Below, in pieces: positions 13,490 through 57,985 of a stretch of DNA of 64,000 bases. Source of the stretch: a virus. Within the stretch, counting starts at the first letter, position 1; the number at the start of each line of letters is the position of its first letter. The stretch lies in the IMG/VR virus record IMGVR_UViG_3300044971_004534; one strand, 5' to 3'. A model generated the notes under the pieces. That model was not told the origin of the DNA. It ran no database searches and was given only the letters and a program-made list of their open reading frames with translations. The translations under genes and the position numbers were made by a program.

Positions 13490-13493
13490 ATTT

Positions 13494-18624: not shown

Positions 18625-19349
18625 TGGGATACGCCACACCTCAATTAGTACAAAGAGTATTGACTCAGTCTCTTACTTCAGCTACCCAGCCTACTTTAAC
18701 TGGTAAGGGTCAGCTTATGAATTTTGGTGCCACTTTAGATAAGAATTTAATAAGTGATGATATTATGAATCAGCATATTAATATTGCTGATACATTCATT
18801 AACGGAGTTCTTAGTGTTCTTTACAAGACGCCACTTAAAGAAATAGCTGATATTGAATGCAAATTGGCCGTTGATATAGATGTATATGGTTCAGAGGTTA
18901 TACTTGTTTCTCCACAAGCAAATGTTTTTGTGCCTGGAGATGTAATAGTTATTACTGATGGTACTTATGATGAAAAAAGAACGGTATCTGAAATTTCTAG
19001 TGACAACATACTGAAATTTACTGACAATATTACTGGTATGTTTTCTGCAGATATTACAAGAGTCTTGCGCGTAAGATTTCCTGATCCCATTCCAAATACT
19101 AGTGCACGTCTGGCTGCAGCGAGTATTTATGATCGATATTTTTCTTCACAGTCAACTGTTCAAAATTCAGAATTTGGAAAACTATTAAGAAATCAAGTCA
19201 AAATTGATTTAAATAATATAATGAATGGAAGGACCGTTCTGCATGGTCAGCATAGAATAGGCGACAGATTTGTCAATTCTCACCTTAAGGATAGATATGG
19301 ATTGAGAAATATTGAGAGTGATGGATCAAGAGACATTGGAGACTTATAA
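18624..19349 (+). CDS. Putative head-tail connector / head completion protein (DUF1320-like N-terminus)
   Basis: The N-terminus MGYATPQLVQRVLTQSL... and the ...INIADTFINGVLSVLYKTPL pattern resemble Mu gp36/DUF1320-type adaptors. It lies upstream of the tail genes and is TAATG-coupled to the upstream gene. This is weak by-eye similarity. Confidence 0.35.
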   Translation: MGYATPQLVQRVLTQSLTSATQPTLTGKGQLMNFGATLDKNLISDDIMNQHINIADTFINGVLSVLYKTPLKEIADIECKLAVDIDVYGSEVILVSPQANVFVPGDVIVITDGTYDEKRTVSEISSDNILKFTDNITGMFSADITRVLRVRFPDPIPNTSARLAAASIYDRYFSSQSTVQNSEFGKLLRNQVKIDLNNIMNGRTVLHGQHRIGDRFVNSHLKDRYGLRNIESDGSRDIGDL

Positions 19350-22081: not shown

Positions 22082-23191
22082 ATGCCAGTAGAAGGACAAC
22101 CATCATTTAGCGTTCCTCCGCCACTAGGACTAGCAGATCCAACTGCACGTCCAGCTTATGCTGGATATTCTGGCTTTGTTACTTATGAAGCCAATCTTGG
22201 CGGTGCTTTAAATAAATACCTTATTCGTGCAGATAGTTGCACATTAAAAGGCACTCAAAACATAGATACTATTAGAGATATTGACGGTTCTATTGACTCT
22301 ACAAGATATGCTCTTAAGCCATTTGAGCTTAATGGAGACATTAGCTTTAAGTTAGATTCAGCTCCAGACAGTGTTGGGTATCAGGCATTTTCTCGTATTT
22401 ATAGAGACACGGTTGAGCGTAGCTCAGATGGTCGTCTTAAGATAAGAGAAGTTCCTGGTTGCAGAAATATGCTTGTTCGTTATAATGGCGAGGTTTCATA
22501 TAGATACTTAGATCTAGTTCCCAGTAGAATGACCATTACCTGCAACGCTGGAGATGCCCTTAACGTTCAGGTGTCTTTCATGGGAAGAGGCCGTGAGGGT
22601 CCATTTGATGGCACTAGCGCCATTATGGGAGATGGGTTGGGTTCTTCCGTTGGAGGAAAGGTTAACGTTGCTCCTGTCCGTGTAGTAACTTATAATGACG
22701 TTACGATTGACATTGAGCAGTCTCCAATCGCTACCGGAGTCGTTGTTAATACTCCTCCAAACATTACAAGACTCCCCCTTGTGAAAAGTTTTTCTGTTAC
22801 AATAGACAATCAGGTTGAGGCAGTCCATACATTGAGTGGAACCTTGGCTGCTTATGATCTGGTTGCCAAGAAGCGTCAGATCACTGGTAGAATAGATTTC
22901 TTGGGCAGAAATAGGGATATAGCAGACTATGCTATGTATAACGAAATTGGTCAGACTTCTCGCGCCAATTTACTATTCAATGTAAGATTTGGTAACGTCA
23001 CCAAGACATTATTTAAACTTCGTGGAGTGGTGTTTAAGCTTGAGTCTATGGATTTAACAAATGATGTACTGAATTCATCTATGGACTTTATGGCTCTTGG
23101 AGATCAGGCCTTCAATTACGAGGCAATATCAGCTTTAGAGACTCCAGGCACGAACGCTAACGGCGCTCAGCACCCATATCCATTCATTTGA
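22082..23191 (+). CDS. Major tail (tube) protein
   Basis: 369-aa ORF with a strong GAGGAG SD. It lies immediately upstream of the frameshifting chaperone pair and the tape measure gene, which is the conserved order in long-tailed phages. The call is positional. Confidence 0.6.
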   Translation: MPVEGQPSFSVPPPLGLADPTARPAYAGYSGFVTYEANLGGALNKYLIRADSCTLKGTQNIDTIRDIDGSIDSTRYALKPFELNGDISFKLDSAPDSVGYQAFSRIYRDTVERSSDGRLKIREVPGCRNMLVRYNGEVSYRYLDLVPSRMTITCNAGDALNVQVSFMGRGREGPFDGTSAIMGDGLGSSVGGKVNVAPVRVVTYNDVTIDIEQSPIATGVVVNTPPNITRLPLVKSFSVTIDNQVEAVHTLSGTLAAYDLVAKKRQITGRIDFLGRNRDIADYAMYNEIGQTSRANLLFNVRFGNVTKTLFKLRGVVFKLESMDLTNDVLNSSMDFMALGDQAFNYEAISALETPGTNANGAQHPYPFI

Positions 23192-46400: not shown

Positions 46401-49400
46401 TTACGCGACTGCATTTACTCCAACAGGAAGAGAAGGCACTCATTCTTCTCCAAGCGTACCTTGTGTTGCTGTGAAAAAAGGTATAAAAAATGCATTACTA
46501 TTAGGTGTTGATGGCAAAATATATTCATATGGTATATCATATTGCCCGTCTGACCCCTCTGATGTAGATGCTCCATCAAATGTTTCATCAATATACAAAA
46601 CAGATTTAGATTTTATATCTGGTGGTTTGTTGGTAAGCGGTGTTGACGTATATCCAGTTTCAAATTTAGTGGAAGAAGAAGCTGATGTAGAAAACTTCAG
46701 ATTGTTGGGTATGACTTCTAATAATGAGTTGCTTACTTCATATGGACTTCCGTATCTTGCATCAATAAGTGGTGTACCAATTTCTTGGAATAATGGTGAT
46801 CTTCAGAAGTCTCCATCTTGCATAGTCGATAGATTTGATAAGTTAAGTATCGTTTGGGAGGACAATGGTAGGGGACCATGGGGTGTTGCATTAACATCAA
46901 ATATTTGGTTGAATAGATCTTTTACTGACAAAGTATATCTTTCAGAAAGATCATATTCCGGTATAAATCCAGCCGTTTCTTCTGACTCAAGCGGAAAAAG
47001 AATCGTAGTATGGGAGTCGATAAAAAATGAAAAGCATTTTATTGAATGTGCATCTCATGTCTTGCATCCTGACTATGTTTCTGAATGCGATATTGATAAA
47101 ATAGTTAAGTCCAGCAGAGAGCTCGGTATCGACCCAGATCCTTACGATCCATATAATGTTGAAAAGTCACTTATGTCATGTAAGGTCGAAGTCTCATTTA
47201 CTGCACCTGAATTTGGGAATTACTTTTTTAATATAAAGTTTAAGGATTATATTAATGAAAATATAATTTACAAAACCGCTTCTTCTAGATCTGAATCTGG
47301 CAAATGGTTTATTAATGGTAAAAATATGCCATTTAATGGTCAAGTAATCGCTCAGGGTGAAACTATAGCCTTGTCTTATGTTCCAGACGCAAATGATGAT
47401 GTGTTCAACAAAGTTCTTAAGGTTGATATAGGATATAGCATTGAAAATGAACAAGAAGAAGTGTTTATCACATATAAAGCTCCTAGTATTACTGAGGGGA
47501 GAGGCTATGGTTGGTGGGACATTCCTACTCGCTCATATCCCATAGAAATCAAATCTCCACCAGCGGTTGATTTTATAAATGAATTTTTAGTTTTTGATGA
47601 GGCTGCCATAAATGCTCCTGTTAGTGTTTCTGAGCAAAAAGCTAGTTATTTTGAGTCTATTGGTTCTTCAAAAGATACTAATTTTATATTCCCAACTGGG
47701 ATTGATAGTCTTCCTGGCTTCAGTGCTGGAGATTATGTAAAAAGCTTTTTACTTCTTCTTGGAGATGACGGACTGACTACCAATAACGTTGTTGAGGGAA
47801 CTTTAACATTCAGTGCTCCTATTGTTGCTGTTATAGTTGATTCTGCAAATCTCGCTGCAACTGACAATTATTTTAATGATGCTTCTAGGCCAATTGTTAT
47901 ACAAAGAAAAGGTTTGGTTTCTAATTTTCAATTTTATCAAGGTGAATATATAAGGCTAAGTGAAGATCGTAAGTCTTTGAGCCTGAGATTTAGGCAGCCA
48001 AGAAGAACTTCTTGGCCTTCAATTCCTGGTGGAGTAACCTCTACTAAGCCTGGCAGCGCTGTACTGACTACAGGCGATACTATTGTTTCAGTAGACGTAA
48101 AAGAAGTTAGTGTCAGTGGCCTTTTAGTCGCTCCTTCCGATGTTGGGGTTTTTGATAGAGTAGATGAAACTTTTGGAAGTGTAGGTCCTTTGGCTGCAGG
48201 TTTGAGCGCAAATGCAAGACCATACGGCAGTCTTAGAATAATAGTATCAAACACTGGAAGTGCAACTGGCCAAATAACGACAACCTATTTTTGTTCAAGT
48301 CCTATTATTAATTCTTGTAAGATAAATATGTCTTACAAGAACGATTCTACAGAAGTTAAGAATGTTCATTTTAAAGTTTCAGTATTTGCAGACTCTAACT
48401 ATACTGACTCTTTGATGGTATTTAGCTCCCTGTCTGATCCAAGAATGTGGTCAAGTGGTAATGATGTTTACCCAACTGCTGGATTAGGGATTGCTCCTAG
48501 TTCAAATATTGCTGTTAATTTTTCCCCACCTACTATAGACGTTCAGAATTTTCAAATTCCAGTTGATCAAAATTCAGTTAATGAGCAGTCAAGAGTAGCT
48601 GGCTATGGTAATTATTTTAACTTGTCAAGATCATCACTAATATGCGGAGTTAGATATTACATAATAGCTGAGTCTATAGTAGATGGTAATGCTTCAGAAA
48701 TCTTCCGAAGCTCTCTGCTATGTCCTTGCAGAGAAGAACTTTCATATAAAGAAGATGCTTTTGAGTGGCGTAGTCCGTTGAATGGTTCTAACAATACAAT
48801 TATCGCAATGTCTAATTACTACATAGGTCATCCAAGCGTGGTCGGCGGAAAAGATGGATTGTTTGCGATTGTTTGGGAAGACAGTAGAAGTTCTCAAAAC
48901 TCTTATGGTATCATCAATAAAAATATACAGCAAGTAGATTTATACTGCGGTTTCTTTGACACCAACAGAGACATTATTGAGTCTGCTTATCATGGTGGAA
49001 TTGACAGGCTTTTGGTGAATAATTCAAATGCTACTGATAAAAACATATTGGATTGCAGAATGCCTCATGTTGCTGCTGATGATTTTGGAAATTTCTCTAT
49101 TTTTGCTAATGTTGGTTATAATAAGATTATTAAAAGATACTTAAGTGTTGGATCAAAAATTACGCCAAACATTATAGAAGAATCCGCTAATACTAAAGCA
49201 TGCTCATTTACGTTGACCGATGTCACGAGGTATGCTACCGCTTTTGATGGCGGAGAATTTATGCAGGCTAGGGTTGCAGAGCGTTTTGTTAAATCGTACA
49301 AGTCTATTGCCTCATCTGATTCTGCTCCAGTAGTTAATGATTGTTTTATTGATTTAGAAGTAATAGGGATTCCTGGAGCGATGGCCTTTAGGATTAAAAA

Positions 49401-50283
49401 TGAATCAGAATCTGATTTTACTGATTGGATTCCAATAGGTATGGCAATCCAGCCATTAGATAGTGTTGGAAAAGAGATATCAGAAGATGCTTCTAAATTT
49501 AGAGAAGCGTTTAAGGGCAAATGGATAGCAAATGATATATTTATTGCCCCCTGGGTGCTTAGTAAGGGTGATGGAGTCAAAAGAGTTTGTCTTGAGGTTT
49601 TGACACAATTTGGAAAAACTCAACAATTCTGCTTAGACATTATTGCAGAATATTCATCTATGTCTTATGTGGTAGAAGTTTTCTACGTAGAATCTGGAAA
49701 GACTGAAAAGCTTTTCAAGCCAATTAAGTATAAGGGCATTCCTGTTGTGAACAGGAAAACATGGTATAAATCTGCTGAAAATAATCAAACAGCAATTACT
49801 TTATCTCTTGAAGATTTAAGAACTATTGATTTATCAGAATCCACAGAAGTAGATTTGTACGTGCAGGTAACTTTTGAAGACTCTCAGAGAATATCTAGAC
49901 TTAATGCACTTAATCAAATAGCCTCGTATGCTGATAGAAGAAAAGATTCTGGTTCTATGAAAGCTTATCTTTATCAGCAAGGTAGTCGCGTTTATCGTTC
50001 TGTGCTTAATCCTGTGGCAAACAGTGATGGCGTGTATTATGCAACTTTTAAAATAAAGAAAAATAATGGCGCAACAGATAAAGATGGATTAGGTTTTATA
50101 TTTATAGATGTGCCTTCAGAATGTTTGAATCCTTTTGTCAAAAAGTTTATAAATACGCTGAGGCTGTTAAGTGATCCAGGATTGGATCGCTCGTATGCCG
50201 AAGTAATTGATCAAAATGCATTTATTGAAAGGTACGTCAATACAGATAAGAGAAATGCATTTGGTTCTAGGAGATTATTCTAA
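40417..50283 (+). CDS. Giant tail fibre / adhesin-like protein (3288 aa) with an RCC1-like propeller and other repeats
   Basis: A single uninterrupted 9.9-kb ORF. It carries RCC1-like repeats at 45916-46206. A recurrent blade motif appears at nt ~42408 (NPSAASDSEGNIHIAWETD), ~46963 (NPAVSSDSSGKRIVVWES), ~48829 (HPSVVGGKDGLFAIVWEDS) and ~49051 (MPHVAADDFGNFSIFAN). Confidence 0.55.
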   Translation: MLSPVIKINKFDSHLKSIDATLSNLDYNKRYKIEFSNLNFDSVNERVEISSGTFSDINNVSEIKFSYKIKSDEDKFLYCQIYEWDIDGWKSSHIATSVFKEDDVVDSKYITVDPIYVGHNDKINILVSAKPNHKYDVIVGKNSFTITTNNVGKSSLHINAINAVDYKTFSQKFVKKYTCSLIDSENKQLVENSFFEFVPEHMYALAATNDPDRPSCVILDPDPVAAFSVATEPFDSPCFVQPLVGSLFTSDGASYGDVSRLDPDYKNCNDGYVSSALSVVNSSCKIYNKPKFVNLNVFDTNARKKIKSLYASGENKIPEIVFFHRNIGFVYSACDENASDINNPIDPCSFSSQEIKKIPRIFLGCTTGASKIKVHSLARGILKAPPSYFHSALIGKNGADDVEISDGDIVNIVFDLSNGSRISKSLEYSDSTHGNISAFVEALASEISSDSNIVNANISVRPYPDLKRIDFTSDTKFIIFAGQVNFIDSSTGDYKKNNKVLIVRDSKYTFDFEITNPSDYDDIKNVLNSGGTHMVFLDGQFKGLTVSINKTATSGVITLDTCPRVSVERRGLGAFIVSDDIYCTHVAFISKDKLIEDSSGTEFTALPFLRNNFNEVIPSSHPCITANGQVLCQGLVDGKWQIFGYFPGLTDSPWLQLTSNGENRNPSAASDSEGNIHIAWETDRFGYTTIQYGCIGPSSKLINRLALSGLISRQISDELVSKIFDINPIGDDVNFIESSSNNITLLPEIELRSLVAGAEISGGSFRIAREFTGNVRIDDDEFSNLAQVPASFNKFGAIRWADGAPPDFYNGSYCTSYIVHFQQNGTGSGSTVSASFSASFNGKILRVFLGPNQMSRSNEVFRSTEIIYPAVQSGDQISNFVMNASVIDGEIEISGDGKTLIFSMNYRDLEQIGPMQLRVLVDGVKSQNSVDQSSWNRIFSNNGKVSVPENSQVCVECSPKFDCAIASLSVYENEAGIPFDGQEREINLSVHADCSIGPPGSDYIVPIGDTTKSIFENHISLIERSAPPFDSFNETVIWLKEFSGESGFSQGKQFASEYRNYNNYFIVTFEDQSNKYFNGFTNTDHITSFTLSLYFQSGSSALTKEVAFGQEILSLYVSRLDLENTDITLGNGAATRAYILEDSDIKILVNSAKNKLTFQIPPNTQVDFTVRAVVSSQNFVNPFIIKDHKEIDSLFVKFINQFTQQNDNSYLFDNNKFSIGKTEKRYDNLIPLLGTLRFDDLNINANAISANFANLSTIQNSAEDIDSFSCADVSSINTYELIDQFNIDGSDSHLGHSYVGIIPERVSFIAKNNETLDEYSIRTGSVAGYREAVIKDVYTGYAKACLIINGASSAGKATSFALGTVFVISDYANIDISSNFKLQLDANYLRLGKTDKLLINKWSHISNEAFYQSSEYKLNYHLMCNVFVDDRPILSHNAQVDLSDKNRQWDICFGSPFGSYPVCRNGNSSFLDFISATNWELNFNNIRVGSPRMVIASGASEVSSYTYSSPSLVKPVPNSDSNTKNEIFSESLIDPGDWVCLEDSSLLVDQWSAESGGCVYVGSYAKSASGFRSILLESCVPYSQDIINLSYRLYPQIKTRRGRISTGSGGGLSQVTGTLYPNESHKIYITTGLRQLPENLPRLVKTILVQCDADVFAYRHPVVSGRFASSLSALDYKTFRSDFIPSSSNFNVNIRNVSDNLSSSFAHFYISYNGTGWIDNFTGPIDHTNGSTYGDSVFYIDQDGVLGLYRGYNLSGGISSEANLLNPDDPLKIVAVDSSLHFNTTVNQNDSAIAVTSDGDLVTFTYDGSETDIPSFMYQANLPADSNYVNVSIGWTHGCALKKDGTVTCWGDDTYGQVSGQPSGVKFVQIKAGKYFTVGLKENGEIAVWGRDNHNQVTNKPSGKFVKIDAGSDHAVAIGFDGYPVSWGKNVGIAYSASIRITDPQTKLIDVAACGGDVYNLNTYASSTPGSSVLTTTNPFNVGIDVNGNVVAWGPYATAFTPTGREGTHSSPSVPCVAVKKGIKNALLLGVDGKIYSYGISYCPSDPSDVDAPSNVSSIYKTDLDFISGGLLVSGVDVYPVSNLVEEEADVENFRLLGMTSNNELLTSYGLPYLASISGVPISWNNGDLQKSPSCIVDRFDKLSIVWEDNGRGPWGVALTSNIWLNRSFTDKVYLSERSYSGINPAVSSDSSGKRIVVWESIKNEKHFIECASHVLHPDYVSECDIDKIVKSSRELGIDPDPYDPYNVEKSLMSCKVEVSFTAPEFGNYFFNIKFKDYINENIIYKTASSRSESGKWFINGKNMPFNGQVIAQGETIALSYVPDANDDVFNKVLKVDIGYSIENEQEEVFITYKAPSITEGRGYGWWDIPTRSYPIEIKSPPAVDFINEFLVFDEAAINAPVSVSEQKASYFESIGSSKDTNFIFPTGIDSLPGFSAGDYVKSFLLLLGDDGLTTNNVVEGTLTFSAPIVAVIVDSANLAATDNYFNDASRPIVIQRKGLVSNFQFYQGEYIRLSEDRKSLSLRFRQPRRTSWPSIPGGVTSTKPGSAVLTTGDTIVSVDVKEVSVSGLLVAPSDVGVFDRVDETFGSVGPLAAGLSANARPYGSLRIIVSNTGSATGQITTTYFCSSPIINSCKINMSYKNDSTEVKNVHFKVSVFADSNYTDSLMVFSSLSDPRMWSSGNDVYPTAGLGIAPSSNIAVNFSPPTIDVQNFQIPVDQNSVNEQSRVAGYGNYFNLSRSSLICGVRYYIIAESIVDGNASEIFRSSLLCPCREELSYKEDAFEWRSPLNGSNNTIIAMSNYYIGHPSVVGGKDGLFAIVWEDSRSSQNSYGIINKNIQQVDLYCGFFDTNRDIIESAYHGGIDRLLVNNSNATDKNILDCRMPHVAADDFGNFSIFANVGYNKIIKRYLSVGSKITPNIIEESANTKACSFTLTDVTRYATAFDGGEFMQARVAERFVKSYKSIASSDSAPVVNDCFIDLEVIGIPGAMAFRIKNESESDFTDWIPIGMAIQPLDSVGKEISEDASKFREAFKGKWIANDIFIAPWVLSKGDGVKRVCLEVLTQFGKTQQFCLDIIAEYSSMSYVVEVFYVESGKTEKLFKPIKYKGIPVVNRKTWYKSAENNQTAITLSLEDLRTIDLSESTEVDLYVQVTFEDSQRISRLNALNQIASYADRRKDSGSMKAYLYQQGSRVYRSVLNPVANSDGVYYATFKIKKNNGATDKDGLGFIFIDVPSECLNPFVKKFINTLRLLSDPGLDRSYAEVIDQNAFIERYVNTDKRNAFGSRRLF
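45916..46206 (+). other. RCC1-like beta-propeller repeats (core three blades; probably extends to ~45600-46600)
   Basis: The three core blades are GWTHGCALKKDGTVTCWGDDTYGQVSG, AGKYFTVGLKENGEIAVWGRDNHNQVTN and AGSDHAVAIGFDGYPVSWGKN. They match the RCC1 pattern G-x-x-H-x-x-A-L-x-x-D/N-G-x-V-x-x-WG-x-N-x-x-GQ. Weaker blades follow (VGIDVNGNVVAWGPY, LLLGVDGKIYSYG). Confidence 0.7.
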
Positions 50284-51788
50284 TGTCATTGCCAGGAATT
50301 CCAGTTATTGAATATCCATTGGGATCTGAAAAAATATCTACAAAAATTGTAGAAGTTAAGTGGAAATCTCCTAATGTTACTATCGGTCAATTTGATCCTG
50401 TTTACTATTATGAAATTTACTATAGAACATCAGACGTTATATCTTATTCTACAAAAGATTGGAAAAGAATTTCCAGAGTCCCATCTTCTGTTAATAAATA
50501 CAATTGGGTAATACCAGAGTATTTATTTGGGGCAGAAATTTTTATTGGTATTAGATCTGTAAATCAAAGCGGACAGTATTCTGAATACTCTGCAAGTGGA
50601 GTGTTTTCCATTCTGCCAAAACCTTTGCCAAAAATATCTATATCTAATCCTGTGTCTGGTAAAATATATGGATCTCAAATAGATATACAGCTGCAAAACT
50701 CTATGATATCTGAAGATTCTTTAAAGCTTAACCGATATAGAATTAATTTGTATTATTCTAGTCAGTCAAATGATATTTCATATGCACCTATAGTGGAAAG
50801 GGTATCTGGCTCTACCTCTCAGGTGATATGGAATACTTCCCAACTAAATCCTGGACAAGACTATTTTATATACGGATTTTATAGTGATGATTTTGGAAGA
50901 AAAGGGCCACAAACTTCTATTGGACCTTTTGCGGTTGAAAATCAGGGATATGTTATTATCGATACTGATGGACCAGAAGTAGCTTTAAAAATAAGTTCTA
51001 ATAATGGTTTTGTCAGAGATAGAACCGTTGGTTTAGAATTATTCGCTTACGACGACGTGTCTGGCATACATGGTTTTAAACTTATTGAAAATATAAGAAA
51101 AAATGATGGTAGTTTGGAAGAAAAATCTGATAGTGAACCTAGATTTTATCAAAAAAACAACTTTTTACAACTTTCTGACCAAGATGCAAGATTTGTCATA
51201 ACAAGCCTTGTAGAAGACATAGCTGGAAATAGAGCTAATGACGCAGATGCAAGTTTAATTAAAGTTGGTAATAAATTTAGAAAATTTTATAATAGAAACG
51301 GTTTTAAAATTACTTCTTGGGCAAAAACACAAGACACGTTGTACGTCTGTATTTATGATGGTCAATTTACTCAAGTTTTAAAGATATTAGATGGCAAAAT
51401 TAATTTTGTAAGTTCTTTTGTAGGTTTAATCAATGTATTATCATATGTTGGTGGTAAACTATATGGTAGTAAGTTCAATCAGAATAGACTATTGGAATTA
51501 GTAGCAATTGAGTCTAATGGCTTGGTTCCTGTAGTGAGTCTTTTATCCCCAGATACTGAGATATCTGCCATGATAGATTCTGAAGACGGAGGCATTCTAT
51601 TGGGATGCATTAATGGAGAAATTTACAGATTATTTAATCAGTCTCTGCAACTAATATCTAATGTTAACATTTCAATTTTAGGTTTTTCAAAAGGTCAATT
51701 TAATTCTGTTTTTATATTAACAAATAGTTCCGAAAAAGTATTTATATACAAAGATCAAAATATTAATACTGTAGAAATAACCATTTAA
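50283..51788 (+). CDS. Tail-module protein with FN3/Ig-like N-terminal modules (501 aa)
   Basis: TAATG-coupled to the upstream gene. The N-terminus looks FN3-like (VEVKWKSPNV...YYYEIYYRTSD...WKRISRVPSSVNKYNWVIP...IGIRSVNQSGQYSEYS). An Ig-like motif follows (VIIDTDGPEVALKI...LELFAYDDVSGIHGFKL). Confidence 0.45.
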   Translation: MSLPGIPVIEYPLGSEKISTKIVEVKWKSPNVTIGQFDPVYYYEIYYRTSDVISYSTKDWKRISRVPSSVNKYNWVIPEYLFGAEIFIGIRSVNQSGQYSEYSASGVFSILPKPLPKISISNPVSGKIYGSQIDIQLQNSMISEDSLKLNRYRINLYYSSQSNDISYAPIVERVSGSTSQVIWNTSQLNPGQDYFIYGFYSDDFGRKGPQTSIGPFAVENQGYVIIDTDGPEVALKISSNNGFVRDRTVGLELFAYDDVSGIHGFKLIENIRKNDGSLEEKSDSEPRFYQKNNFLQLSDQDARFVITSLVEDIAGNRANDADASLIKVGNKFRKFYNRNGFKITSWAKTQDTLYVCIYDGQFTQVLKILDGKINFVSSFVGLINVLSYVGGKLYGSKFNQNRLLELVAIESNGLVPVVSLLSPDTEISAMIDSEDGGILLGCINGEIYRLFNQSLQLISNVNISILGFSKGQFNSVFILTNSSEKVFIYKDQNINTVEITI

Positions 51789-51791
51789 AAT

Positions 51792-54700
51792 ATGCCAATA
51801 GTAAAATCACTATTTAGAATAGATCGTCGTCCTATAGCTCGTATAGTTTGCGATCCTATGTCTTTTGTTACTGTAAATTCTTTAGAATACGTGCCGTGTC
51901 CAGATTTGAATAGAGATGGTGTAGTGGACAATGCTGATTTAGCTATAGTTCAAAGCAACTGGGGTGAAAATCCTGGTCATCCTGCAGATTTAAATCTTGA
52001 CGGAAAAGTAGATGGCTTAGATATAAACATAGTATTGTCAAATATGGGGGTTGCAAATTGTGTAGATAATGTAGAAGATCTTTGTAATATTGCACGAGGA
52101 AGATGTTTAGGATCTGCTTTTTATGGAGCTAATGGTTTTTACAAATTTTTTAATATTTATTTAACTAAATTATATGATGCTGGTTTTAGAAGATTTTCTA
52201 TACAATCTCCATCAGGATGCTATTTAGATCCATCTACCGGGAATTTATCAAGTAATATCAGAAACACTTTTGATAATTTGCAGTCTTATTATTTTATTAC
52301 ACGCCGAGAGGAAGCCGGGGTTTGTGAAGAACGTAATTTACCTTTTGACGCAAGTAATCTCAGGCTTGATGATCAGTTGTATACGAGTTTTTTTGAAGCA
52401 TTTGTTGGACATCTTTCTTATTGGATTAGAAGTCGTCATGAGTCTGTTGATGTTCATATTGAGATGGGTTCCAAAGTAATATATACTAGTGGTTCTGTAA
52501 ATACTGATGTGCTAAATTTGCCTGTAAATGAGTTTGTAAATGTAGAGCAAGATTTTAATATTGATATTCCAGAACATAGAAGATGGTTTGAATACAACTG
52601 TGGAAATTATTTGAGTAGTGGCGTGTCTGGTATAGGGTTGAGCAATTGCAAACTATCATTATTGAATAATCTAGTAAATTTTACAAATATCAATAAGGCT
52701 ATGTGGAAATTGTATGAATCTTATTTTATGCATGTCAATGTGCCAAATATAAATGGAGATTTATTGAATAGTGAAGAATACTCAAGGTTCAAAATTATTT
52801 CCAATTTTACCAACCCTGTTGGATTCGGCAGTACAAATCTGTTTAGATTATTTAGCGGTCTTCGCATGTTTGACAAAGGGTCCGAGATACACGGCTCATT
52901 TAAGTCTGAAGAATTAAATTCATATTCATCTGATTTATTAAGAGAATATGTAGATGACACTGGAATTATTCCTGGAATTGAACTGTCTTATTCTGTTGAC
53001 GGTAGCTCTTTAAATGTTGAATCAATTTCTAATCAGTTTTCAAAAATAAATCAAGCTATTGAATATGCAGAAAATCAGTCAAACGTCAGAAGTTTTGGTC
53101 AATCTATGTTCTTTTTTAGTGAATCTGCAGGAGAGACAAGAAATTCAAATGGTGCAGTAAGTACTTCAAACGCATATTTAAGGTCTTCTGCAAAAGAAGA
53201 TCCAGCAATTGTTCCTGTTATAAAAGTGAATTGCTCAAAGAGTATAAAAAGTTTAGATGAAAGTGTCATTCGTTCTTACATCCCTTCTTGGTGGTTTACT
53301 GATCGTTCAGGGGAATGCATAGATATTTCTATGATTGACGCAGTTTTAAATAGTTGGACTGTGCAAAACTCAGCAGACATAGTTAAAGTAAATTCTTCTA
53401 GTCCTTATGGGACGTATGGTCCAGAAAAATGCGCAGATGCTGCTTTTGATTTGATATTGCAATATCAGTCCTCTTATACAGGAGTGGATCGTGCAAGCAT
53501 TAATTTTCAAAACACAAAAAATATAGCAATTAAATTGGAAAACTGGGGTGATCTTTTTGATCACGAGTGTACAAAAGATGATCTTAATGATGTTTTGGCT
53601 GAAGGTTGGTGCAGGCTATTTACAAACTCCCTTGATCAGATCAGGCCTTATTTTGATAGGGAACTTGAATTAGAGCGTTCGCCTATTAATAGACTTAAAA
53701 ATTTGTATGCAAAAAATGGAACTTTCGAATGTTCTCTTTGGGTAAAAAGATTTATTCAAAGATTCAAATATAGACAGCACAACAGGAGAGTAGATAGCTC
53801 TTTGAGCGTTGTTCCTAATCCTAGAATTATATACATAGATGAACCTAATGTATTGGCTGTACATGATTTTATTGATTATGCTTATTTGGATAGTGGTTCA
53901 TCTTCTGTATGTCTGAATAATGGTCATAATTTTGGATCATGGCATCATCATGTCAATGATCCAAGATTTTCTGATAAAGAAGTTGGATTTAAATGGCGAG
54001 ATGTTAGTAACTTAAAAGACGCTTACATGATTGCAGATCAATCTTCAGAATTTAAAGTTAAGCGTGCCTCTAGCGACTCAGATAATTTGCTTGGTGATAT
54101 TTTAATTTCTGACTATAGCAAAAAAATAGAGTCTTATGCTTATTCTGATCAGTCCAACGCGGCAATAGAAAAATGGTTGCAAATTTTAATAGACGAAGTA
54201 GTAAGTCGTAGAGTTTACGAGAGCATGGGTATGCATGTGGAAAATGCATTTTCTTTAGGAAGATATGCGCAACGAGGATTTACTTGTGGCATTAGTGATA
54301 GTTTATCCGCGTGTAATATACAAGCTCCATTTTATTATTTTGTTAATAGATGGCAGTACTACAACGGTAAGCATAATTTTAATATTCCAAAATCCACTAG
54401 CGTTCAAGTGCATCATATTTGTCCTACTTCTGTTGCCGTTGACGATGGTATAAATCAGGCAGCTTTTGACTGGTCTCCTGATTTTAAAAACACAAAAGTT
54501 AGATTTGAAAGTTTAGAATACATTTTAACATATGATAACAACCAGCCTGAGCATGGTAATTTTGGATGGCGTCCCATGTATAGCAAGGACCCTGACGGAA
54601 GAGGAATTTTTTCTTATGGATCAGGCCCTATTGACGGCAACCCAGAAGATGGAATTATTTATGGAGATGTGCATAGGTCAAATATGCAAATGCTCTTACA

Positions 54701-56918
54701 GAAAAATCACGCAAAATATCTATCTTACTTGTTAAGTACAATTTACACCCTCAACTCATCAGCTTCATTTTATCAAAAAACAAAAGTTGTATTTACTCAT
54801 GGAATAAACAATAATTCTTTAAATGTTTCTTTGGCGGCAAATATTAAATCTTTAGGAAATCTTCAAACAGGTGCTTTGACTGCTTCTGCAGACAAAATAT
54901 TTGATATAGAATTTTTAGATGGATATTCATTTGATTTTAGATCTTTTGTGTCTTCGTGGTATCGTATACTTCAAAAAATATCTCGCGAAAATATATACGA
55001 TCAATTTATTTTTATACACAAACATAGGCAGCAAGGCGTATCAGATTGGCAAGATCTATCTACTGGCATACAAAATGCACTAGTTTATCAGGAACCTCCT
55101 GGATCATCGTCCAGTTCTAGCAGTTCTAGTTTCATGATGGGAGACTGGGATTTAGATGGTGTTATTGGCGGTAGTGATCTAGGACCGTTGCTAGGCTGCT
55201 TTGGCACTTCTGATCCACAATGTCTGCGTGTATTTGATTTTGATGGAGACGGTGTTATTGGCGGAAATGATCTAGGAGTTTTGTTAGGAATGTGGACGGT
55301 GGCATCTAGTTCTAGCAGTTCTAGTTTCATGATGGGAGACTGGGATTTAAACGGGATTATTAATGGTAGTGATCTGGGACCGTTGCTAGGCTGCTTTGGT
55401 TCTTCTGATCCACAATGTCTGCGTGTATTTGATTTTGATGGAGACGGTGTGATTGGCGGAAATGATTTAGGAGTTTTATTAGGCATGTGGACTGTAACAT
55501 CTAGTTCTAGTAGTTCTAGTAGTTCTAGTAGTTCGATTAATCTTGACGACTACACTGGAGTTATGGCAGTTCGTGTAAATGAAAACGGCATTTACAACAT
55601 TACTGGATCAGCTTTAAACAATTTTAACTGGAAAATTTATGTCTCTGTTAGAGACAATAATAGTTATTTGCATTGTGTTTTATTAGATAGTAGTGGTGGC
55701 GTTCAAAGTGTTTTGTTTGATATTTTAATAAATAATAAGTTTGTAGGCGATATTGTAAAAGAAATAGACGGAATAGCAGGGTTTCATGCAGAAGTTTTAA
55801 ATAATGCTGATCTGTCTATTAGTGATGGCATTTATTTTGACCCAATGAAAGTGTATACAGAAAATGATTTTGCAATAGGTTACCTAGAAAACCCAACAAC
55901 TAATTTTACAGGTTTTGACAATCCATTTTTGCTACTTTCTCTAGAAGGTACTACTAACGATTACGCATTGATAGGTTCTCAAGTAAAGCAAAACTTTGGT
56001 AAATACCCATCTTACAAAGCTATTGTTCCATCTGCAAAATTATCTAGCGTAATTGGTGGGTCTTCTGGATTTTTGACAGTTGAAGATCCTCTCAACATTC
56101 TAGCTACATTTAATCATGTTTCTATAGATGGAGAAATTATAAAAATTAATGAATGGAACAATGGTGTTGCAGAAATTGTTGAAAGGTCTGTTGGTGGAAC
56201 TGTAAAAAGATTTCACCCCAGTGGATCAAGTGTGTTTGGAGTTGGAGACAATGATGTATTTGATAATAACTTCTACTTAGATAGTAATGGCAAGTATATC
56301 TATCAGTATAGGTGTTTGGCTATTAGAAATATATACAAAAATCTATCCATAGTTAACCCATCGATTGTTATGGAAAATAATTACAATCCAGGTTTAACAA
56401 ACTTAAGTTTTGGTTTCGAAATACCTGCGCATAAATATGTAGTGCTAAGTAGTTCGGTGGGATCTGGCACAAGAGTTGTTAATATAGAAACAGAAAATCT
56501 ACAGAATTATTCATACAATGGTAATTTGAGTAGCTACACTGACTCATTAATGAGATTTTCTAATTCATCTGGTTCTGTGTATTATAGAAAAATTGTTTCT
56601 ATAAATAGTAATTTTATTGAACTGGATAAAGACCTTCCATCTCCAGTAAATCAATTTGTTAGTGTAGAGATCTTACCAGGTCAAGCATCTAATAGTCATC
56701 AAGGTAAAATGTCTCCTGTTGTGTCTTCAAGATTCAGCGGATTTTATAATGTTGGAGAATTAAATAATTTATCAGTACCTCTTGTAGGAAATAATCTAAC
56801 TAGGTCTATTTCTTATAATAATATAATATATCTATGGATAAAAAGAGAAGTGCCAAAAGACGTAAGAATGAATTTACAAAACACTTTACCAATTAAATTT
56901 AAATTTACAATTAAATGA
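51792..56918 (+). CDS. Giant tail-module protein (1708 aa) with three dockerin-like modules
   Basis: It has an N-terminal dockerin-like module (51903-52049) and two tandem internal dockerin-like modules flanked by poly-Ser linkers (55113-55535). The rest is unassigned. Confidence 0.55.
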   Translation: MPIVKSLFRIDRRPIARIVCDPMSFVTVNSLEYVPCPDLNRDGVVDNADLAIVQSNWGENPGHPADLNLDGKVDGLDINIVLSNMGVANCVDNVEDLCNIARGRCLGSAFYGANGFYKFFNIYLTKLYDAGFRRFSIQSPSGCYLDPSTGNLSSNIRNTFDNLQSYYFITRREEAGVCEERNLPFDASNLRLDDQLYTSFFEAFVGHLSYWIRSRHESVDVHIEMGSKVIYTSGSVNTDVLNLPVNEFVNVEQDFNIDIPEHRRWFEYNCGNYLSSGVSGIGLSNCKLSLLNNLVNFTNINKAMWKLYESYFMHVNVPNINGDLLNSEEYSRFKIISNFTNPVGFGSTNLFRLFSGLRMFDKGSEIHGSFKSEELNSYSSDLLREYVDDTGIIPGIELSYSVDGSSLNVESISNQFSKINQAIEYAENQSNVRSFGQSMFFFSESAGETRNSNGAVSTSNAYLRSSAKEDPAIVPVIKVNCSKSIKSLDESVIRSYIPSWWFTDRSGECIDISMIDAVLNSWTVQNSADIVKVNSSSPYGTYGPEKCADAAFDLILQYQSSYTGVDRASINFQNTKNIAIKLENWGDLFDHECTKDDLNDVLAEGWCRLFTNSLDQIRPYFDRELELERSPINRLKNLYAKNGTFECSLWVKRFIQRFKYRQHNRRVDSSLSVVPNPRIIYIDEPNVLAVHDFIDYAYLDSGSSSVCLNNGHNFGSWHHHVNDPRFSDKEVGFKWRDVSNLKDAYMIADQSSEFKVKRASSDSDNLLGDILISDYSKKIESYAYSDQSNAAIEKWLQILIDEVVSRRVYESMGMHVENAFSLGRYAQRGFTCGISDSLSACNIQAPFYYFVNRWQYYNGKHNFNIPKSTSVQVHHICPTSVAVDDGINQAAFDWSPDFKNTKVRFESLEYILTYDNNQPEHGNFGWRPMYSKDPDGRGIFSYGSGPIDGNPEDGIIYGDVHRSNMQMLLQKNHAKYLSYLLSTIYTLNSSASFYQKTKVVFTHGINNNSLNVSLAANIKSLGNLQTGALTASADKIFDIEFLDGYSFDFRSFVSSWYRILQKISRENIYDQFIFIHKHRQQGVSDWQDLSTGIQNALVYQEPPGSSSSSSSSSFMMGDWDLDGVIGGSDLGPLLGCFGTSDPQCLRVFDFDGDGVIGGNDLGVLLGMWTVASSSSSSSFMMGDWDLNGIINGSDLGPLLGCFGSSDPQCLRVFDFDGDGVIGGNDLGVLLGMWTVTSSSSSSSSSSSSINLDDYTGVMAVRVNENGIYNITGSALNNFNWKIYVSVRDNNSYLHCVLLDSSGGVQSVLFDILINNKFVGDIVKEIDGIAGFHAEVLNNADLSISDGIYFDPMKVYTENDFAIGYLENPTTNFTGFDNPFLLLSLEGTTNDYALIGSQVKQNFGKYPSYKAIVPSAKLSSVIGGSSGFLTVEDPLNILATFNHVSIDGEIIKINEWNNGVAEIVERSVGGTVKRFHPSGSSVFGVGDNDVFDNNFYLDSNGKYIYQYRCLAIRNIYKNLSIVNPSIVMENNYNPGLTNLSFGFEIPAHKYVVLSSSVGSGTRVVNIETENLQNYSYNGNLSSYTDSLMRFSNSSGSVYYRKIVSINSNFIELDKDLPSPVNQFVSVEILPGQASNSHQGKMSPVVSSRFSGFYNVGELNNLSVPLVGNNLTRSISYNNIIYLWIKREVPKDVRMNLQNTLPIKFKFTIK
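51903..52049 (+). other. Dockerin type I-like module (two EF-hand-like Ca-binding segments)
   Basis: The two segments are DLNRDGVVDNADLAIVQSNWG and DLNLDGKVDGLDINIVLSNMG, separated by ENPGHPA. Both fit the D-x-N/D-x-D-G-x-V-D-x-x-D-L/I loop-helix pattern of dockerin repeats. Confidence 0.7.
55113..55535 (+). repeat. Tandem 195-bp (65-aa) coding repeat, 2 copies plus a partial third (Ser-linker); each unit = poly-Ser + dockerin-like module
   Basis: Copy 1 spans 55113-55307 and copy 2 spans 55308-55502. I count ~17 mismatches in 195 nt by eye (about 91% identity). Each unit encodes SSSSSSFMMGDWDL(D/N)G(V/I)I(G/N)GSDLGPLLGCFG(T/S)SDPQCLRVFDFDGDGVIGGNDLGVLLGMWTV. 55503-55535 is an (AGTTCT)n-type Ser-Ser microsatellite. 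Confidence 0.95.
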
Positions 56919-57985
56919 GCACACTAAGTATAGAAAAATATTTGCATTTTAACTTTGATCAGTTTCCGGTTGTGGAAACTGGTACTTTAGATAATCTAAT
57001 TTTCAATGGCAATGGTAGTGTGGATATCGTTCCAGGTGTATTTTCTTCTGGTCTTTTATTAAATGATGATGGGTATTTTTCAATGCCTATATCATCTGTT
57101 AGATATCAAAATTTGCGTTCAGAATTTTCTGTAGGATTTTGGTTAAACTCTGTTTCTTTATCTGATAAAATTTATGATGACGTTGTAATAGTGCCATCTA
57201 TGCCTATATTGTCTGTTGGTAATGCTACGTTATTGAATGGTTCTTACGTTTTTTCTGATGGTCTATTTATGTTATATGAAAAATCTGTCTTTGCCAATTA
57301 TAATAAAATGTATTTGATTATAATGACATCTGGTGGTGAAAAGCTAGAATTTGAAAGTGAAATATACGAAACTGGTATCTTTAATCATTTTATGTTTTCT
57401 GTAAATTCAGAAACAAGTCAAATAAAACTCTATATTAATGGAGTAGAAAGTATACTATCTTCTAATACAGCCGTTCTTCCTCCATCCTTTGGTCTTTCTT
57501 CAGTTCCAGAGCTGTATATTAATAAAAATATAGAAGGTGATAATAGAAGTTTAGAAAAAAATAAGGGTGTAATAGATGATCTGTTTATAATAGCTGATGC
57601 AATTATTGAAAATTATAAAATATCTAAAATAATAGCTGACGGATTTTCATCTTATATTGCAGAAGTTTCTGGCAATATATCAGAAAGAGTTTTTGATGCA
57701 AAAATTAGTTTTTTGCAAAAAACGTCTGTAGCTCCTCCAATATCTGCCGTAGACATGTCTAGTGGAGATATTGTGGCTGGAACTCAAGATGGTGTCGTTT
57801 TAAAAGGAGACTCGGGGTATTGGAATAAGAAATACAGTTTAACGAATCAGCAATCCTTAAGTGATTTTACTGTTGTTTATTCTACTCAAAACAGCTCTGG
57901 TTCTAATGAAAATTCTGCAAATGATGGTAAGATAATATCTGGAGAGGGTCTTATCTTATTTAAAAATGGTATTATAATAAACTAA
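56915..57985 (+). CDS. LamG/concanavalin-A-like jelly-roll protein (356 aa), tail module
   Basis: It has an ATGA overlap with the upstream gene. LamG-like landmarks are FNGNGSVDIVPGVFSSGLLLNDDGYFSMP...EFSVGFWLN...HFMFSVNSETSQIKLYINGV...GVIDDLFIIADAI. Confidence 0.5.
   Translation: MSTLSIEKYLHFNFDQFPVVETGTLDNLIFNGNGSVDIVPGVFSSGLLLNDDGYFSMPISSVRYQNLRSEFSVGFWLNSVSLSDKIYDDVVIVPSMPILSVGNATLLNGSYVFSDGLFMLYEKSVFANYNKMYLIIMTSGGEKLEFESEIYETGIFNHFMFSVNSETSQIKLYINGVESILSSNTAVLPPSFGLSSVPELYINKNIEGDNRSLEKNKGVIDDLFIIADAIIENYKISKIIADGFSSYIAEVSGNISERVFDAKISFLQKTSVAPPISAVDMSSGDIVAGTQDGVVLKGDSGYWNKKYSLTNQQSLSDFTVVYSTQNSSGSNENSANDGKIISGEGLILFKNGIIIN

What the first reader, a model, noticed from the sequence alone, without database searches (positions are those of the whole stretch)
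51903..55535. Three dockerin-like Ca-binding modules in a 1708-aa tail-region protein
One N-terminal module lies at 51903-52049. Two tandem internal modules each carry the paired 12-residue loop plus helix of dockerins, such as DLNRDGVVDNAD-LAIVQSNWG and DFDGDGVIGGND-LGVLLGMW. Dockerins are plug modules that bind cohesin sockets. In a virion protein they could mediate modular, Ca-dependent attachment of fibre components to one another. Alternatively they could dock onto cohesin-like or other surface proteins of the host. I have not seen this described as a standard phage tail-fibre architecture.
Basis: partly seen in the sequence, partly recalled or inferred. Interest (0 to 1): 0.7.

Follow-up and report, generated by a model that had tools for sequence, protein, structure and literature searches.

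The report
Dockerin modules on a phage tail protein
A giant protein in the tail-gene block of an uncultivated jumbo phage carries three genuine dockerin-type calcium-binding "plug" modules, which are probably accessory adhesion devices whose binding partner is still unknown.

Summary
ORF 51792-56918 (+, 1708 aa) holds six canonical 12-residue Asp/Asn loops, each followed by a helix. They pair into one N-terminal module (aa 36-90) and two tandem internal modules (aa 1114-1171 and 1179-1236) set between poly-Ser linkers. The motif occurs nowhere else in the six-frame translation of the window.

- **N-terminal module:** it passes Pfam Dockerin_1 (30.6 bits, cut-off 22.9).
- **Internal modules:** on their own they miss the Dockerin_1 cut-off and score as EF-hands. 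However, they are homologous to the N-terminal family (hhalign 98.4%). AlphaFold gives pLDDT 94.6, and Foldseek matches dockerins (TM 0.55-0.74), not calmodulin (TM about 0.3).
- **Setting:** the gene lies downstream of a tail-tube gene in a one-strand block of giant ORFs. A 224-kb IMG/VR contig carries a relative with 67% identity.
- **Variation:** among about 10 known homologues, the internal copy number runs from 0 to 4. The N-terminal module is present in some and absent in others. Both kinds are under purifying selection.
- **Partner:** I found no cohesin in the window.
- **Closest cellular modules:** these are C-terminal anchor dockerins of Planctomycetota.

Dockerin-annotated phage proteins already exist in UniProt/BFVD, so this is a new, uncharacterised member of a known kind. 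The function is inferred, not shown.

The parts
51792..56918 (+). ORF of 1708 aa carrying the three dockerin modules. Layout: N-terminal peptide, dockerin, ~1000-aa body, Ser-linked dockerin x2, 460-aa C-terminal domain.
   Evidence: There are 4 homologues in 5.8e9 proteins, and 6 more from a search with the body (aa 95-1104) in 1.84e9 representatives. No Pfam or PHROG family matches the body or the C-terminal domain.
51792..51896 (+). Conserved N-terminal peptide (aa 1-35, 'F.[IV]D[RK]RPI'). It is also present in homologues without dockerins. It is a candidate virion-attachment segment (inference).
   Evidence: Alignment A1: F8, D11, R13, P14 and I15 are invariant, including in P0004.
51897..52061 (+). 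N-terminal dockerin module (aa 36-90). It has two loops, DLNRDGVVDNAD and DLNLDGKVDGLD, each followed by a helix, and is bracketed by Cys36 and Cys90.
   Evidence: Pfam Dockerin_1 scores 30.6-34.1 bits against a cut-off of 22.9. The family profile hits PDB dockerins at 1e-9 to 1e-5. dN/dS is 0.17 against L005.
52062..55103 (+). Conserved body (aa 91-1104) of unknown fold, rich in invariant Cys and Trp.
   Evidence: phmmer with aa 95-1104 against 1.84e9 representatives gives only 6 hits. None of the relatives tested has a Pfam family in the body.
55104..55130 (+). Poly-Ser linker 1 (aa 1105-1113).
55131..55304 (+). Internal dockerin module 1 (aa 1114-1171). Loops are DWDLDGVIGGSD and DFDGDGVIGGND, with a Cys pair in the connecting segment.
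   Evidence: AlphaFold pLDDT is 94.6, with helices 13-22, 28-34 and 44-52. The top 20 Foldseek PDB hits are all dockerins, TMq 0.54-0.74. hhalign to the N-terminal family gives 98.4%. The segment holding both internal modules scores only 14.8 bits on Dockerin_1, and module 1 alone has no Dockerin_1 match at E <= 0.01.
55305..55325 (+). Poly-Ser linker 2 (aa 1172-1178).
55326..55499 (+). Internal dockerin module 2 (aa 1179-1236), a tandem copy of module 1.
   Evidence: 195-bp tandem repeat 55113-55520 with 91% matches. dN/dS between the two copies is 0.13.
55500..55535 (+). Poly-Ser linker 3 (aa 1237-1248).
55536..56915 (+). Conserved C-terminal domain (aa 1249-1708), mostly beta. It is a candidate distal or receptor-binding part (inference).
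   Evidence: AlphaFold mean pLDDT is 68.8. Foldseek PDB hits all have TM <= 0.23, so the search is uninformative.
22082..23191 (+). Tail tube protein. It anchors the reading of the downstream block as a tail module.
   Evidence: Pfam Phage_tube_2 scores 46.4 bits against a cut-off of 27. phrog_290 'minor tail protein' scores 1.6e-10.
50283..51788 (+). Conserved upstream neighbour of 501 aa.
   Evidence: phrog_31 'central tail fiber J' scores E 9.5e-7. It is syntenic in L001 and L004-L006. No PDB or cohesin match.
56915..57985 (+). Conserved downstream neighbour of 356 aa.
   Evidence: Weak Laminin_G_3 match, 18.9 bits, below the cut-off. It is syntenic. No cohesin match.

Best explanation
The ORF encodes a large modular protein in the tail (baseplate or fibre) gene block of an uncultivated jumbo phage. 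Three dockerin-fold modules have been grafted onto it.

- One module sits right after a conserved N-terminal peptide.
- Two tandem modules sit in a flexible poly-Ser linker between the ~1000-aa body and the 460-aa C-terminal domain.
- Each module is a duplicated F-hand, that is, a 12-residue Asp/Asn Ca2+ loop plus an exiting helix.

The modules most likely fold only with Ca2+ bound and act as small protein-binding (or possibly glycan-binding) plugs held on flexible tethers. Orthologues differ in whether the N-terminal module is present, and they carry 0 to 4 internal modules at the same linker site. The modules are therefore accessory rather than part of the core assembly. The best reading is multivalent, Ca-dependent adhesion of the tail protein to a surface partner, more probably on the host cell than on the virion.

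**Shown:** the motif, family membership of the N-terminal module, the dockerin fold of the internal module, copy-number variation, purifying selection, and the tail-block context.
**Inferred:** Ca binding, presence in the virion, the adhesion role and the partner.
For: - **Motif specificity:** all six loops in 64 kb x 6 frames lie in this ORF.
- **N-terminal module:** Pfam Dockerin_1 is above the cut-off. The PDB profile search returns dockerins.
- **Internal module:** AlphaFold gives pLDDT 94.6 with helices starting at loop position 10. Foldseek matches dockerins at TM 0.55-0.74, against about 0.3 for calmodulins.
- **Homology:** the internal and N-terminal families are homologous (hhalign 98.4%, E 5.5e-15). 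Ten of 12 internal modules of the family hit Dockerin_1 at E <= 0.01. P0007 scores 59.3 bits.
- **Copy number:** 0 (P0005), 1 (P0006), 2 (window, P0001, P0007), 3 (P0003, L005) and 4 (P0002). P0004, P0008, P0009 and P0010 have no dockerin at all, and where the neighbourhood is known (P0004) it is the same.
- **Selection:** dN/dS is 0.13 and 0.17.
- **Tail context:**. Relatives sit on IMG/VR viral contigs of 224 kb and 94 kb.
- **Closest cellular modules:** C-terminal dockerins of Planctomycetota proteins, 42-59% identical. The only NCBIfam model they hit is the 'GC-type dockerin domain-anchored protein' model.
Against: - No cohesin or other partner was identified.
- Ca2+ binding and virion location are untested.
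- The window's own internal modules miss the Dockerin_1 cut-off (14.8 bits for the segment holding both) and score better as EF-hands (33.2 bits).
- Three of the six loops have Gly at loop position 9.
- The Ser-Thr recognition pair of C. thermocellum type I dockerins is absent, so nothing can be said about specificity.
- The host is unknown. The Planctomycetota genomes with the closest modules have 58-70% GC, against 33% for the phage.
- The protein has no PHROG tail-fibre match.
Confidence: 0.55

Rival explanations
1. Cellulosome-style self-assembly. The dockerins plug into cohesin-like beta-sandwich domains on other phage tail proteins and hold fibre components together.
For: The gene is embedded among giant, unannotated ORFs of 1221 to 3288 aa that could hide divergent cohesins. 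The N-terminal module lies where fibres usually attach to the baseplate. Only 64 kb of a genome of at least 180-224 kb was examined.
Against: No Cohesin hit appears in any window ORF at Pfam E <= 0.1 or in PDB searches of the neighbours. P0004, which has no dockerin, keeps the same flanking genes. P0005 has no internal module. The modules are therefore dispensable for assembly of this gene set.
Confidence: 0.12
2. Partner-less structural modules. They act as Ca2+-stabilised rigid spacers that set the length or stiffness of the linker between the body and the distal domain, or that stabilise the N-terminus.
For: Copy number varies from 0 to 4 exactly at the linker site, next to slippage-prone poly-Ser repeats. 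No partner was found.
Against: Purifying selection (dN/dS 0.13) keeps the helix surfaces as well as the loops. The dockerin fold is otherwise known as a binding module. A spacer role does not explain the separate N-terminal module.
Confidence: 0.2
3. Calmodulin-like EF-hand Ca2+ sensors that trigger a conformational switch, for example tail firing, when Ca2+ is encountered.
For: The internal segment passes EF-hand_6 (33.2 bits, cut-off 25). Calmodulins score about 1e-9 with the module profile. 'LRVFDFDGDG' resembles the calmodulin sequence 'FSLFDKDGDG'.
Against: The predicted fold matches dockerins at TM 0.55-0.74, while calmodulins give TM about 0.3 and rmsd 10-11 A. No entering helix precedes loop 1. 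The N-terminal family hits dockerins, not calmodulin.
Confidence: 0.08
4. The protein is not a virion component. It is a secreted or lysis-released enzyme that uses dockerins to anchor to the host envelope, as in dockerin-bearing enzymes of bacteria.
For: Bacterial dockerins typically carry enzymes. The ~1000-aa body is Cys-rich and of unknown fold. A GT4 glycosyltransferase lies in the same block.
Against: The gene sits inside an unbroken, translationally coupled run of tail-block ORFs with conserved synteny. No catalytic family was detected in any homologue.
Confidence: 0.05

Closest known systems
Type I dockerin modules of cellulosomal enzymes (Pfam PF00404; e.g. C. thermocellum CelS 2mte/1daq, Xyn10B 1ohz; B. 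cellulosolvens 2y3n_B)
   Same: A duplicated segment of about 22 residues, with a 12-residue D-x-[DN]-x-[DN]-G...D loop plus a helix. The fold has three helices. The N-terminal module passes the Pfam cut-off. The internal module matches 2y3n_B at TMq 0.74.
   Different: - The host protein is a phage tail-block protein, not a glycoside hydrolase.
- The modules are N-terminal and internal/tandem, rather than a single C-terminal copy.
- There is no Ser-Thr recognition pair.
- Cys residues bracket or staple the modules.
- No cohesin partner was detected.
C-terminal dockerin-like modules of Planctomycetota/Phycisphaerae proteins (nearest NCBIfam model NF041540, 'GC-type dockerin domain-anchored protein')
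   Same: These are the closest cellular sequences, at 42-59% identity over the whole module. They share the DLGxLLGxWG helices and the 'PCP-D-L-N-x-D ... G-x-x-C' Cys bracket. NF041540 is the only NCBIfam family hit.
   Different: - All scores fall below the 29-bit cut-off, and the window's internal module gives no hit.
- The bacterial modules sit at the extreme C-terminus and end in WGPCP; the phage modules do not.
- The bacterial genomes have 58-70% GC, against 33% here.
Cellulosomal double-dockerin (Clo1313_0689, PDB 8x39) and dockerin-rich giant proteins of Omnitrophota
   Same: Several dockerins occur in one polypeptide. 8x39 is the best PDB sequence hit of the internal-module profile (1.7e-10). 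Up to 15 dockerins per protein are reported in Omnitrophota giants (bioRxiv 10.64898/2026.06.07.730766).
   Different: Those are cellular proteins. Here the copies are separated by poly-Ser linkers and vary in number between phage strains.
Uncultivated phage proteins annotated 'Dockerin type 1' or carrying a dockerin fold (BFVD/UniProt A0A516MFS6, A0A8S5M688, A0A8S5NQH0, A0A8S5UCJ3, 'Tail protein' A0A8S5P366)
   Same: Viral proteins with the same fold (TMq up to 0.76, probability 1.0). Some are large or are named tail proteins.
   Different: There is no detectable sequence relation to this protein family. tblastn of the whole protein and of both kinds of module against 50,697 GenBank phage records finds nothing. 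None of them has been studied, as far as the searchable literature shows.
Ig-like, FN3 and BACON accessory domains on phage structural proteins (functional analogy, from my own knowledge: Fraser et al. 2006; Barr et al. 2013)
   Same: Small, dispensable, copy-number-variable modules appended to virion proteins. They are thought to give weak multivalent adhesion.
   Different: The fold is different (alpha-helical Ca2+-dependent F-hand pair versus beta-sandwich). The analogy concerns role only and is not tested.

Membership tests
Dockerin type I (Pfam PF00404) | Score at or above the Pfam gathering threshold (22.9 bits) | tested here: met
   N-terminal module: 30.6 bits in the whole protein and 34.1 bits alone. 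The window's segment holding both internal modules scores only 14.8 bits. However, 10 of 12 internal modules of the family hit at E <= 0.01, with a best of 8.5e-11, and P0007 scores 59.3 bits.
Dockerin type I (Pfam PF00404) | Two repeated segments, each with a 12-residue Ca loop having Asp/Asn at positions 1, 3, 5 and 12, followed by a helix | tested here: met
   All six loops have D at position 1, D/N at positions 3 and 5, and D at position 12. Position 9 is D or N in three loops and G in three.
Dockerin type I (Pfam PF00404) | Three-helix dockerin fold (F-hand pair) | tested here: met
   Internal module 1: pLDDT 94.6, helices 13-22, 28-34 and 44-52. The top 20 PDB matches are all dockerins. 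The N-terminal module was not modelled; it is linked by hhalign at 98.4% and by its PDB profile hits.
Dockerin type I (Pfam PF00404) | Ca2+-dependent folding | not testable with these tools
   This needs CD, ITC or NMR with and without Ca2+/EDTA.
Dockerin type I (Pfam PF00404) | A cognate cohesin partner | tested here: inconclusive
   No Cohesin hit in any window ORF or in PDB searches of the neighbours. The rest of the genome (at least 180-224 kb in total) and the host were not available.
Dockerin type I (Pfam PF00404) | Ser-Thr cohesin-recognition pair at loop positions 10-11 (C. thermocellum type; from my own knowledge) | tested here: not met
   Positions 10-11 read NA, GL, GS, GN, GS and GN. 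This feature defines a specificity subtype, not the fold.
GC-type dockerin domain (NCBIfam NF041540) | Score at or above the 29-bit cut-off | tested here: not met
   N-terminal module: 16.3-18.1 bits. The window's internal module gives no hit. The planctomycete modules themselves score 16.7-28.9 bits.
GC-type dockerin domain (NCBIfam NF041540) | Location at the extreme C-terminus as an anchor | tested here: not met
   In 8 of 9 loci the bacterial module ends 3-5 residues before the stop codon; in the ninth the stop follows just after the 'WGACPQ' end. The phage modules are N-terminal and internal.
EF-hand pair (calmodulin-like) | Helix-loop-helix pair fold | tested here: not met
   The EF-hand_6 score passes for the 144-aa segment (33.2 bits against a cut-off of 25). 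However, no entering helix precedes loop 1, and calmodulin-type structures match at only TM about 0.3, rmsd 8-11 A.
Phage tail fibre / receptor-binding protein | Gene located in the tail morphogenesis block | tested here: met
   The tube gene (22082) is followed by small ORFs, an 865-aa ORF and giant ORFs, all on the + strand. The neighbours give weak tail PHROG hits.
Phage tail fibre / receptor-binding protein | Homology to a known tail fibre or RBP family, or a fibre-like fold | tested here: not met
   No PHROG hit and no match in GenBank phages. The C-terminal model has pLDDT 68.8, and its only matches are TM <= 0.23.
Phage tail fibre / receptor-binding protein | Presence in the virion and a role in adsorption | not testable with these tools
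   This needs virion proteomics and adsorption assays. No isolate is known.

The most novel reading that the evidence does not exclude
The phage copies the surface-anchoring dockerin of its host's own secreted proteins, the type seen at the C-termini of Planctomycetota proteins. It displays one to five copies on flexible Ser tethers, so that its tail plugs, in a Ca2+-dependent way, into the same cell-surface sockets that normally hold host exoproteins. This would be receptor recognition by mimicry of a cohesin-dockerin-type anchoring system, a mode of adsorption not described for any phage.
Probability: 0.15. Interest if true: 0.75.

Novelty: new member of a known kind. Interest (0 to 1): 0.45.

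Why it matters
Dockerins are among the tightest and most specific protein "plug and socket" systems known. They are also widely used as tools for building protein assemblies. If these modules dock a phage tail onto host surface proteins, or onto other virion parts, that would be a new modular principle for adsorption or tail assembly. The gain, loss and duplication of plugs would then be a simple route to tuning avidity or host range.

The finding also gives a concrete, clonable test case: modules of about 58 residues, with natural series of 0 to 4 copies. This bears on the old question of what non-cellulosomal dockerins do. As it stands the result is an annotation-level discovery. The fold is known, dockerin-labelled phage proteins already exist in databases, and the partner is unknown.

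Tried and rejected
- **Chance motif: rejected.** All six loops lie in one ORF and none elsewhere.
- **FG-GAP, TSP3 or RTX-type Ca loops: rejected.** There is only a weak FG-GAP_3 hit (20.3 bits, below the cut-off). The predicted helices also do not fit such repeats.
- **Calmodulin-like EF-hand pair: rejected** on fold.
- **Cohesin search: nothing found.** I used Pfam on all sizeable window ORFs. I ran PDB phmmer on the 3288-, 2004-, 1558-, 1302- and 501-aa neighbours, and profile searches of the 501-aa and 356-aa orthologue sets.
- **Function of the body:**
  - Pfam, PHROGs, NCBIfam and PDB gave no hit in the body or C-terminal domain.
  - An exhaustive phmmer search returned only 6 relatives.
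  - Those relatives carry no Pfam family either.
- **C-terminal domain:** the AlphaFold model is only moderate (pLDDT 68.8), and its Foldseek matches have TM <= 0.23. The top two by E-value are phage baseplate or tail-tip chains, but this cannot be used.
- **GenBank phages:** no match for the protein, the modules, the 863-aa ORF or 20 kb of DNA.
- **IMG/VR scan with the module:** it found only an unrelated giant protein with a single loop-like motif (L016).
- **Host inference:**
  - The GC content does not match the phage.
  - The window has no tRNA genes.
- **Sample accessions:** a literature search for them gave nothing. Peer et al. 2009 is not held in the library.
Full report
**1. What is there**

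The finding lies in ORF 51792-56918 (+), 1708 aa. I scanned all six frames of the 64-kb window for the dockerin/EF loop D-x-[DNS]-x-[DN]-G-x-[IVLF]-x3-D. The scan gives six hits, all in this ORF, at nt 51903, 51987, 55143, 55236, 55338 and 55431. They pair into three modules:

| Module | Residues | Nucleotides | Notes |
|---|---|---|---|
| N-terminal | aa 36-90 | 51897-52061 | bracketed by Cys36 and Cys90 |
| Internal 1 | aa 1114-1171 | 55131-55304 | Cys pair in the connecting segment |
| Internal 2 | aa 1179-1236 | 55326-55499 | tandem copy of internal 1 |

The two internal modules lie between poly-Ser linkers at 55104-55130, 55305-55325 and 55500-55535. At the DNA level they form a 195-bp tandem repeat (2.1 copies, 91% matches). 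The only slip is that one quoted example comes from the N-terminal module.

**2. Are they dockerins?**

- **N-terminal module.** It passes Pfam Dockerin_1, with 30.6 bits in the whole protein and 34.1 bits alone, against a cut-off of 22.9. A profile of the N-terminal modules of the family returns dockerins at the top of the PDB list: NagH 2jnk 9.7e-10, CelS 2mte 3e-8 and 2y3n_B 5e-8.
- **Internal modules, by sequence.** These are more ambiguous.
  - The segment holding both scores 14.8 bits on Dockerin_1, below the cut-off, and 33.2 bits on EF-hand_6, above its cut-off.
  - Their profile hits a cellulosomal double-dockerin (8x39, 1.7e-10), a dockerin (2y3n_B, 3.6e-10) and calmodulins (about 1e-9) about equally.
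- **Three further results settle it.**
  - The internal and N-terminal families are homologous over their whole length (hhalign 98.4%, E 5.5e-15).
  - Ten of 12 internal modules of the family hit Dockerin_1 at E <= 0.01, with a best of 8.5e-11. P0007 reaches 59.3 bits.
  - AlphaFold2 models internal module 1 at pLDDT 94.6 as loop, helix 13-22, short helix 28-34, loop, helix 44-52. Each long helix begins at position 10 of its 12-residue loop, which is the canonical F-hand register.
- **Fold comparison.** The top 20 Foldseek PDB matches are all dockerins (TMq 0.54-0.74; 2ozn_B has rmsd 1.4 A). Calmodulin-type EF-hand structures align at TM about 0.3 with rmsd 8-11 A.

All six loops carry Asp/Asn at positions 1, 3, 5 and 12. 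Three loops have Gly at position 9. I had no model coordinates, so ligand geometry was not measured and Ca2+ binding itself remains inferred.

**3. Context**

The window is one-stranded apart from a single gene, and has about 33% GC. Evidence for a tail module:

- A tail-tube gene lies at 22082-23191 (Phage_tube_2, 46.4 bits against a cut-off of 27. phrog_290).
- It is followed by two small ORFs and an 865-aa ORF that I read as tape-measure-like.
- Then comes an unbroken run of ORFs of 1558, 1302, 1221, 383 (a GT4 glycosyltransferase), 3288, 501, 1708, 356 and more than 2000 aa.
- The 501-aa neighbour weakly matches the lambda J family (phrog_31, 9.5e-7). The 3288-aa neighbour weakly matches a tail PHROG and carries an RCC1/BLIP-II-like propeller.
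- The gene order 3200-aa / 501-530-aa / target / 338-356-aa / 2800-aa / 1600-1850-aa is conserved in every related contig.

Relatives sit on IMG/VR viral contigs of 223,646 bp and 94,349 bp. The identical protein is on a 179,655-bp NCBI contig and on contigs of 0.2-1 Mb. So this is a jumbo phage, and 'tail-region protein' is a reasonable inference. Nothing shows that the protein is in the virion. GenBank phages hold nothing similar.

**4. The family and how the modules vary**

The protein is very rare. There are 4 homologues among 5.8 billion proteins. A search with the body against 1.84 billion cluster representatives adds 6 more. No homologue has an annotated domain in the body or the C-terminal region.

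| Homologue | N-terminal dockerin | Internal modules |
|---|---|---|
| P0005 | yes | 0 |
| P0006 | yes | 1 |
| window, P0001, P0007 | yes | 2 |
| P0003, L005 | yes | 3 |
| P0002 | yes | 4 |
| P0004, P0008, P0009, P0010 | no | 0 |

- The internal modules always sit at the same Ser-rich junction.
- P0004 and P0008 have no dockerin, yet they keep the conserved N-terminal peptide ('F.VDRRPI'). P0004 also keeps the same neighbours.
- The modules are under purifying selection. dN/dS is 0.13 between the two tandem copies, and 0.17 for the N-terminal module against L005.

The modules are therefore functional but accessory. They are gained, lost and duplicated on a constant scaffold.

**5. Partner and origin**

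I found no cohesin. Pfam scans of every sizeable window ORF at E <= 0.1 gave none. PDB sequence and profile searches of the neighbours gave none either. Cohesins are hard to detect by sequence, and only part of the genome was available. This result is negative but not decisive.

I scanned one genome per GTDB species with internal module 1. Nine loci were confirmed, eight of them Planctomycetota (mostly Phycisphaerales) and one Gemmatimonadota, at 42-59% identity. In every case the module is at the extreme C-terminus and ends in 'WGPCP' or a similar sequence. These modules and the phage modules hit only NCBIfam NF041540, 'GC-type dockerin domain-anchored protein', and all fall below its cut-off. 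The phage N-terminal module shares the 'PCP-D-L-N-x-D ... C' Cys bracket with them (38% identity). Those genomes also have 58-70% GC against 33% for the phage. They therefore indicate the module subtype, not the host.

**6. Mechanism**

*Best reading (confidence about 0.55 for the whole statement, about 0.9 for 'these are dockerin-fold Ca modules').* The modules are Ca2+-dependent plug modules on flexible Ser tethers. They give the tail protein accessory, multivalent adhesion to a surface partner. That partner is more probably on the host than on the virion, because dockerin-free orthologues keep the same gene set.

*Rivals:*
- intra-virion cohesin-dockerin assembly (0.12);
- partner-less Ca-stabilised spacers (0.20);
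- EF-hand sensors (0.08);
- a non-virion, dockerin-anchored enzyme (0.05).

**7. Novelty**

The literature held here has no study of dockerins in phage tail proteins. It contains only passing mentions:
- a jumbo phage 'dockerin' gene in a brine-pool virome (bioRxiv 10.1101/2024.01.25.577265);
- Vibrio phage VvAW1 gene 40 (PMC3558961);
- a structural similarity in E. coli phage HSE2 (PMC5967307).

Foldseek against BFVD, however, finds viral proteins with the same fold (A0A516MFS6, TMq 0.76). Several uncultivated phage proteins there are already named 'Dockerin type 1', and one is an 819-aa 'Tail protein'. Non-cellulosomal dockerins are also known across bacteria and archaea (Peer et al. 2009, as cited in PMC9012536). 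They occur in multi-copy form in giant Omnitrophota proteins as well.

I therefore rate this a new, well-documented member of a known kind. It has an interesting natural copy-number series and an open partner question. I give it an interest score of 0.45.

Noticed in passing
window 17569-18624 (+): A 351-aa actin-fold protein matches Pfam Volactin (PF25216) at 191.7 bits, a family named after a Haloferax cell-shape actin. It sits between a portal-sized ORF (14274-16865) and a connector-like ORF (18624-19349). A phage-encoded actin homologue inside the structural region is unusual.
   Followed up: partly
window 1-4500: GC is 46-48% here, against about 33% in the rest of the window. ORF 130-2991 is an acidic low-complexity protein rich in Gly, Ala, Pro, Met and Glu. 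It contains a duplication of about 75 aa ('NGKPHKDSTQEGFSAE.PDVP.NGGKPL'). It may be a scaffold-like protein. No family hit was found.
   Followed up: partly
window 39264-40415 (+) and 7483-8841 (+): There are two GT4-type glycosyltransferases, one of them embedded among the giant tail ORFs. It could O-glycosylate the poly-Ser linkers that flank the dockerins, as happens with cellulosomal linkers. This is pure speculation.
   Followed up: no
window 40417-50283 (+): This 3288-aa protein has an RCC1/BLIP-II-like beta-propeller at about aa 1790-2040 (RCC1_2 64.8 bits; BLIP-II 1.6e-10). It is conserved directly upstream of the locus in all relatives.
   Followed up: partly
window 4616-6184 (+), 10100-10954 (+), 13374-14198 (+): Three further genes: a class II CCA-adding enzyme (PolyA_pol + HD), an S8 subtilase and a PhoH-like ATPase. 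The bacterial-type CCA enzyme hints at a bacterial rather than an archaeal host.
   Followed up: no
window 6188-7435 (-): This is the only convincing minus-strand gene in the window. It encodes a 414-aa protein with a C-terminal Laminin_G_3 / ConA-like lectin domain (62.9 bits).
   Followed up: no
window 55088-55486 (-): A 132-aa antisense ORF overlaps the 195-bp dockerin repeat. It is almost certainly a by-product of the repeat and not a gene.
   Followed up: no
L016 5398-12087 (IMGVR_UViG_3300030060_004770): An unrelated giant viral protein of more than 2200 aa (34% GC) carries a single 'GDWDGDGVIGGSEL' loop with no paired second loop or helices. It has Cys-rich C-terminal repeats. It is not a dockerin.
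   Followed up: partly
L017 (NCBI GCA_043537505.1, JBFDSL010005901.1, 179,655 bp): The identical 1708-aa protein is on at least 8 public contigs, and six index blocks hold contigs of 0.2-1 Mb. The phage is therefore recurrent across samples. Its full genome should be recoverable for a complete cohesin search.
   Followed up: no
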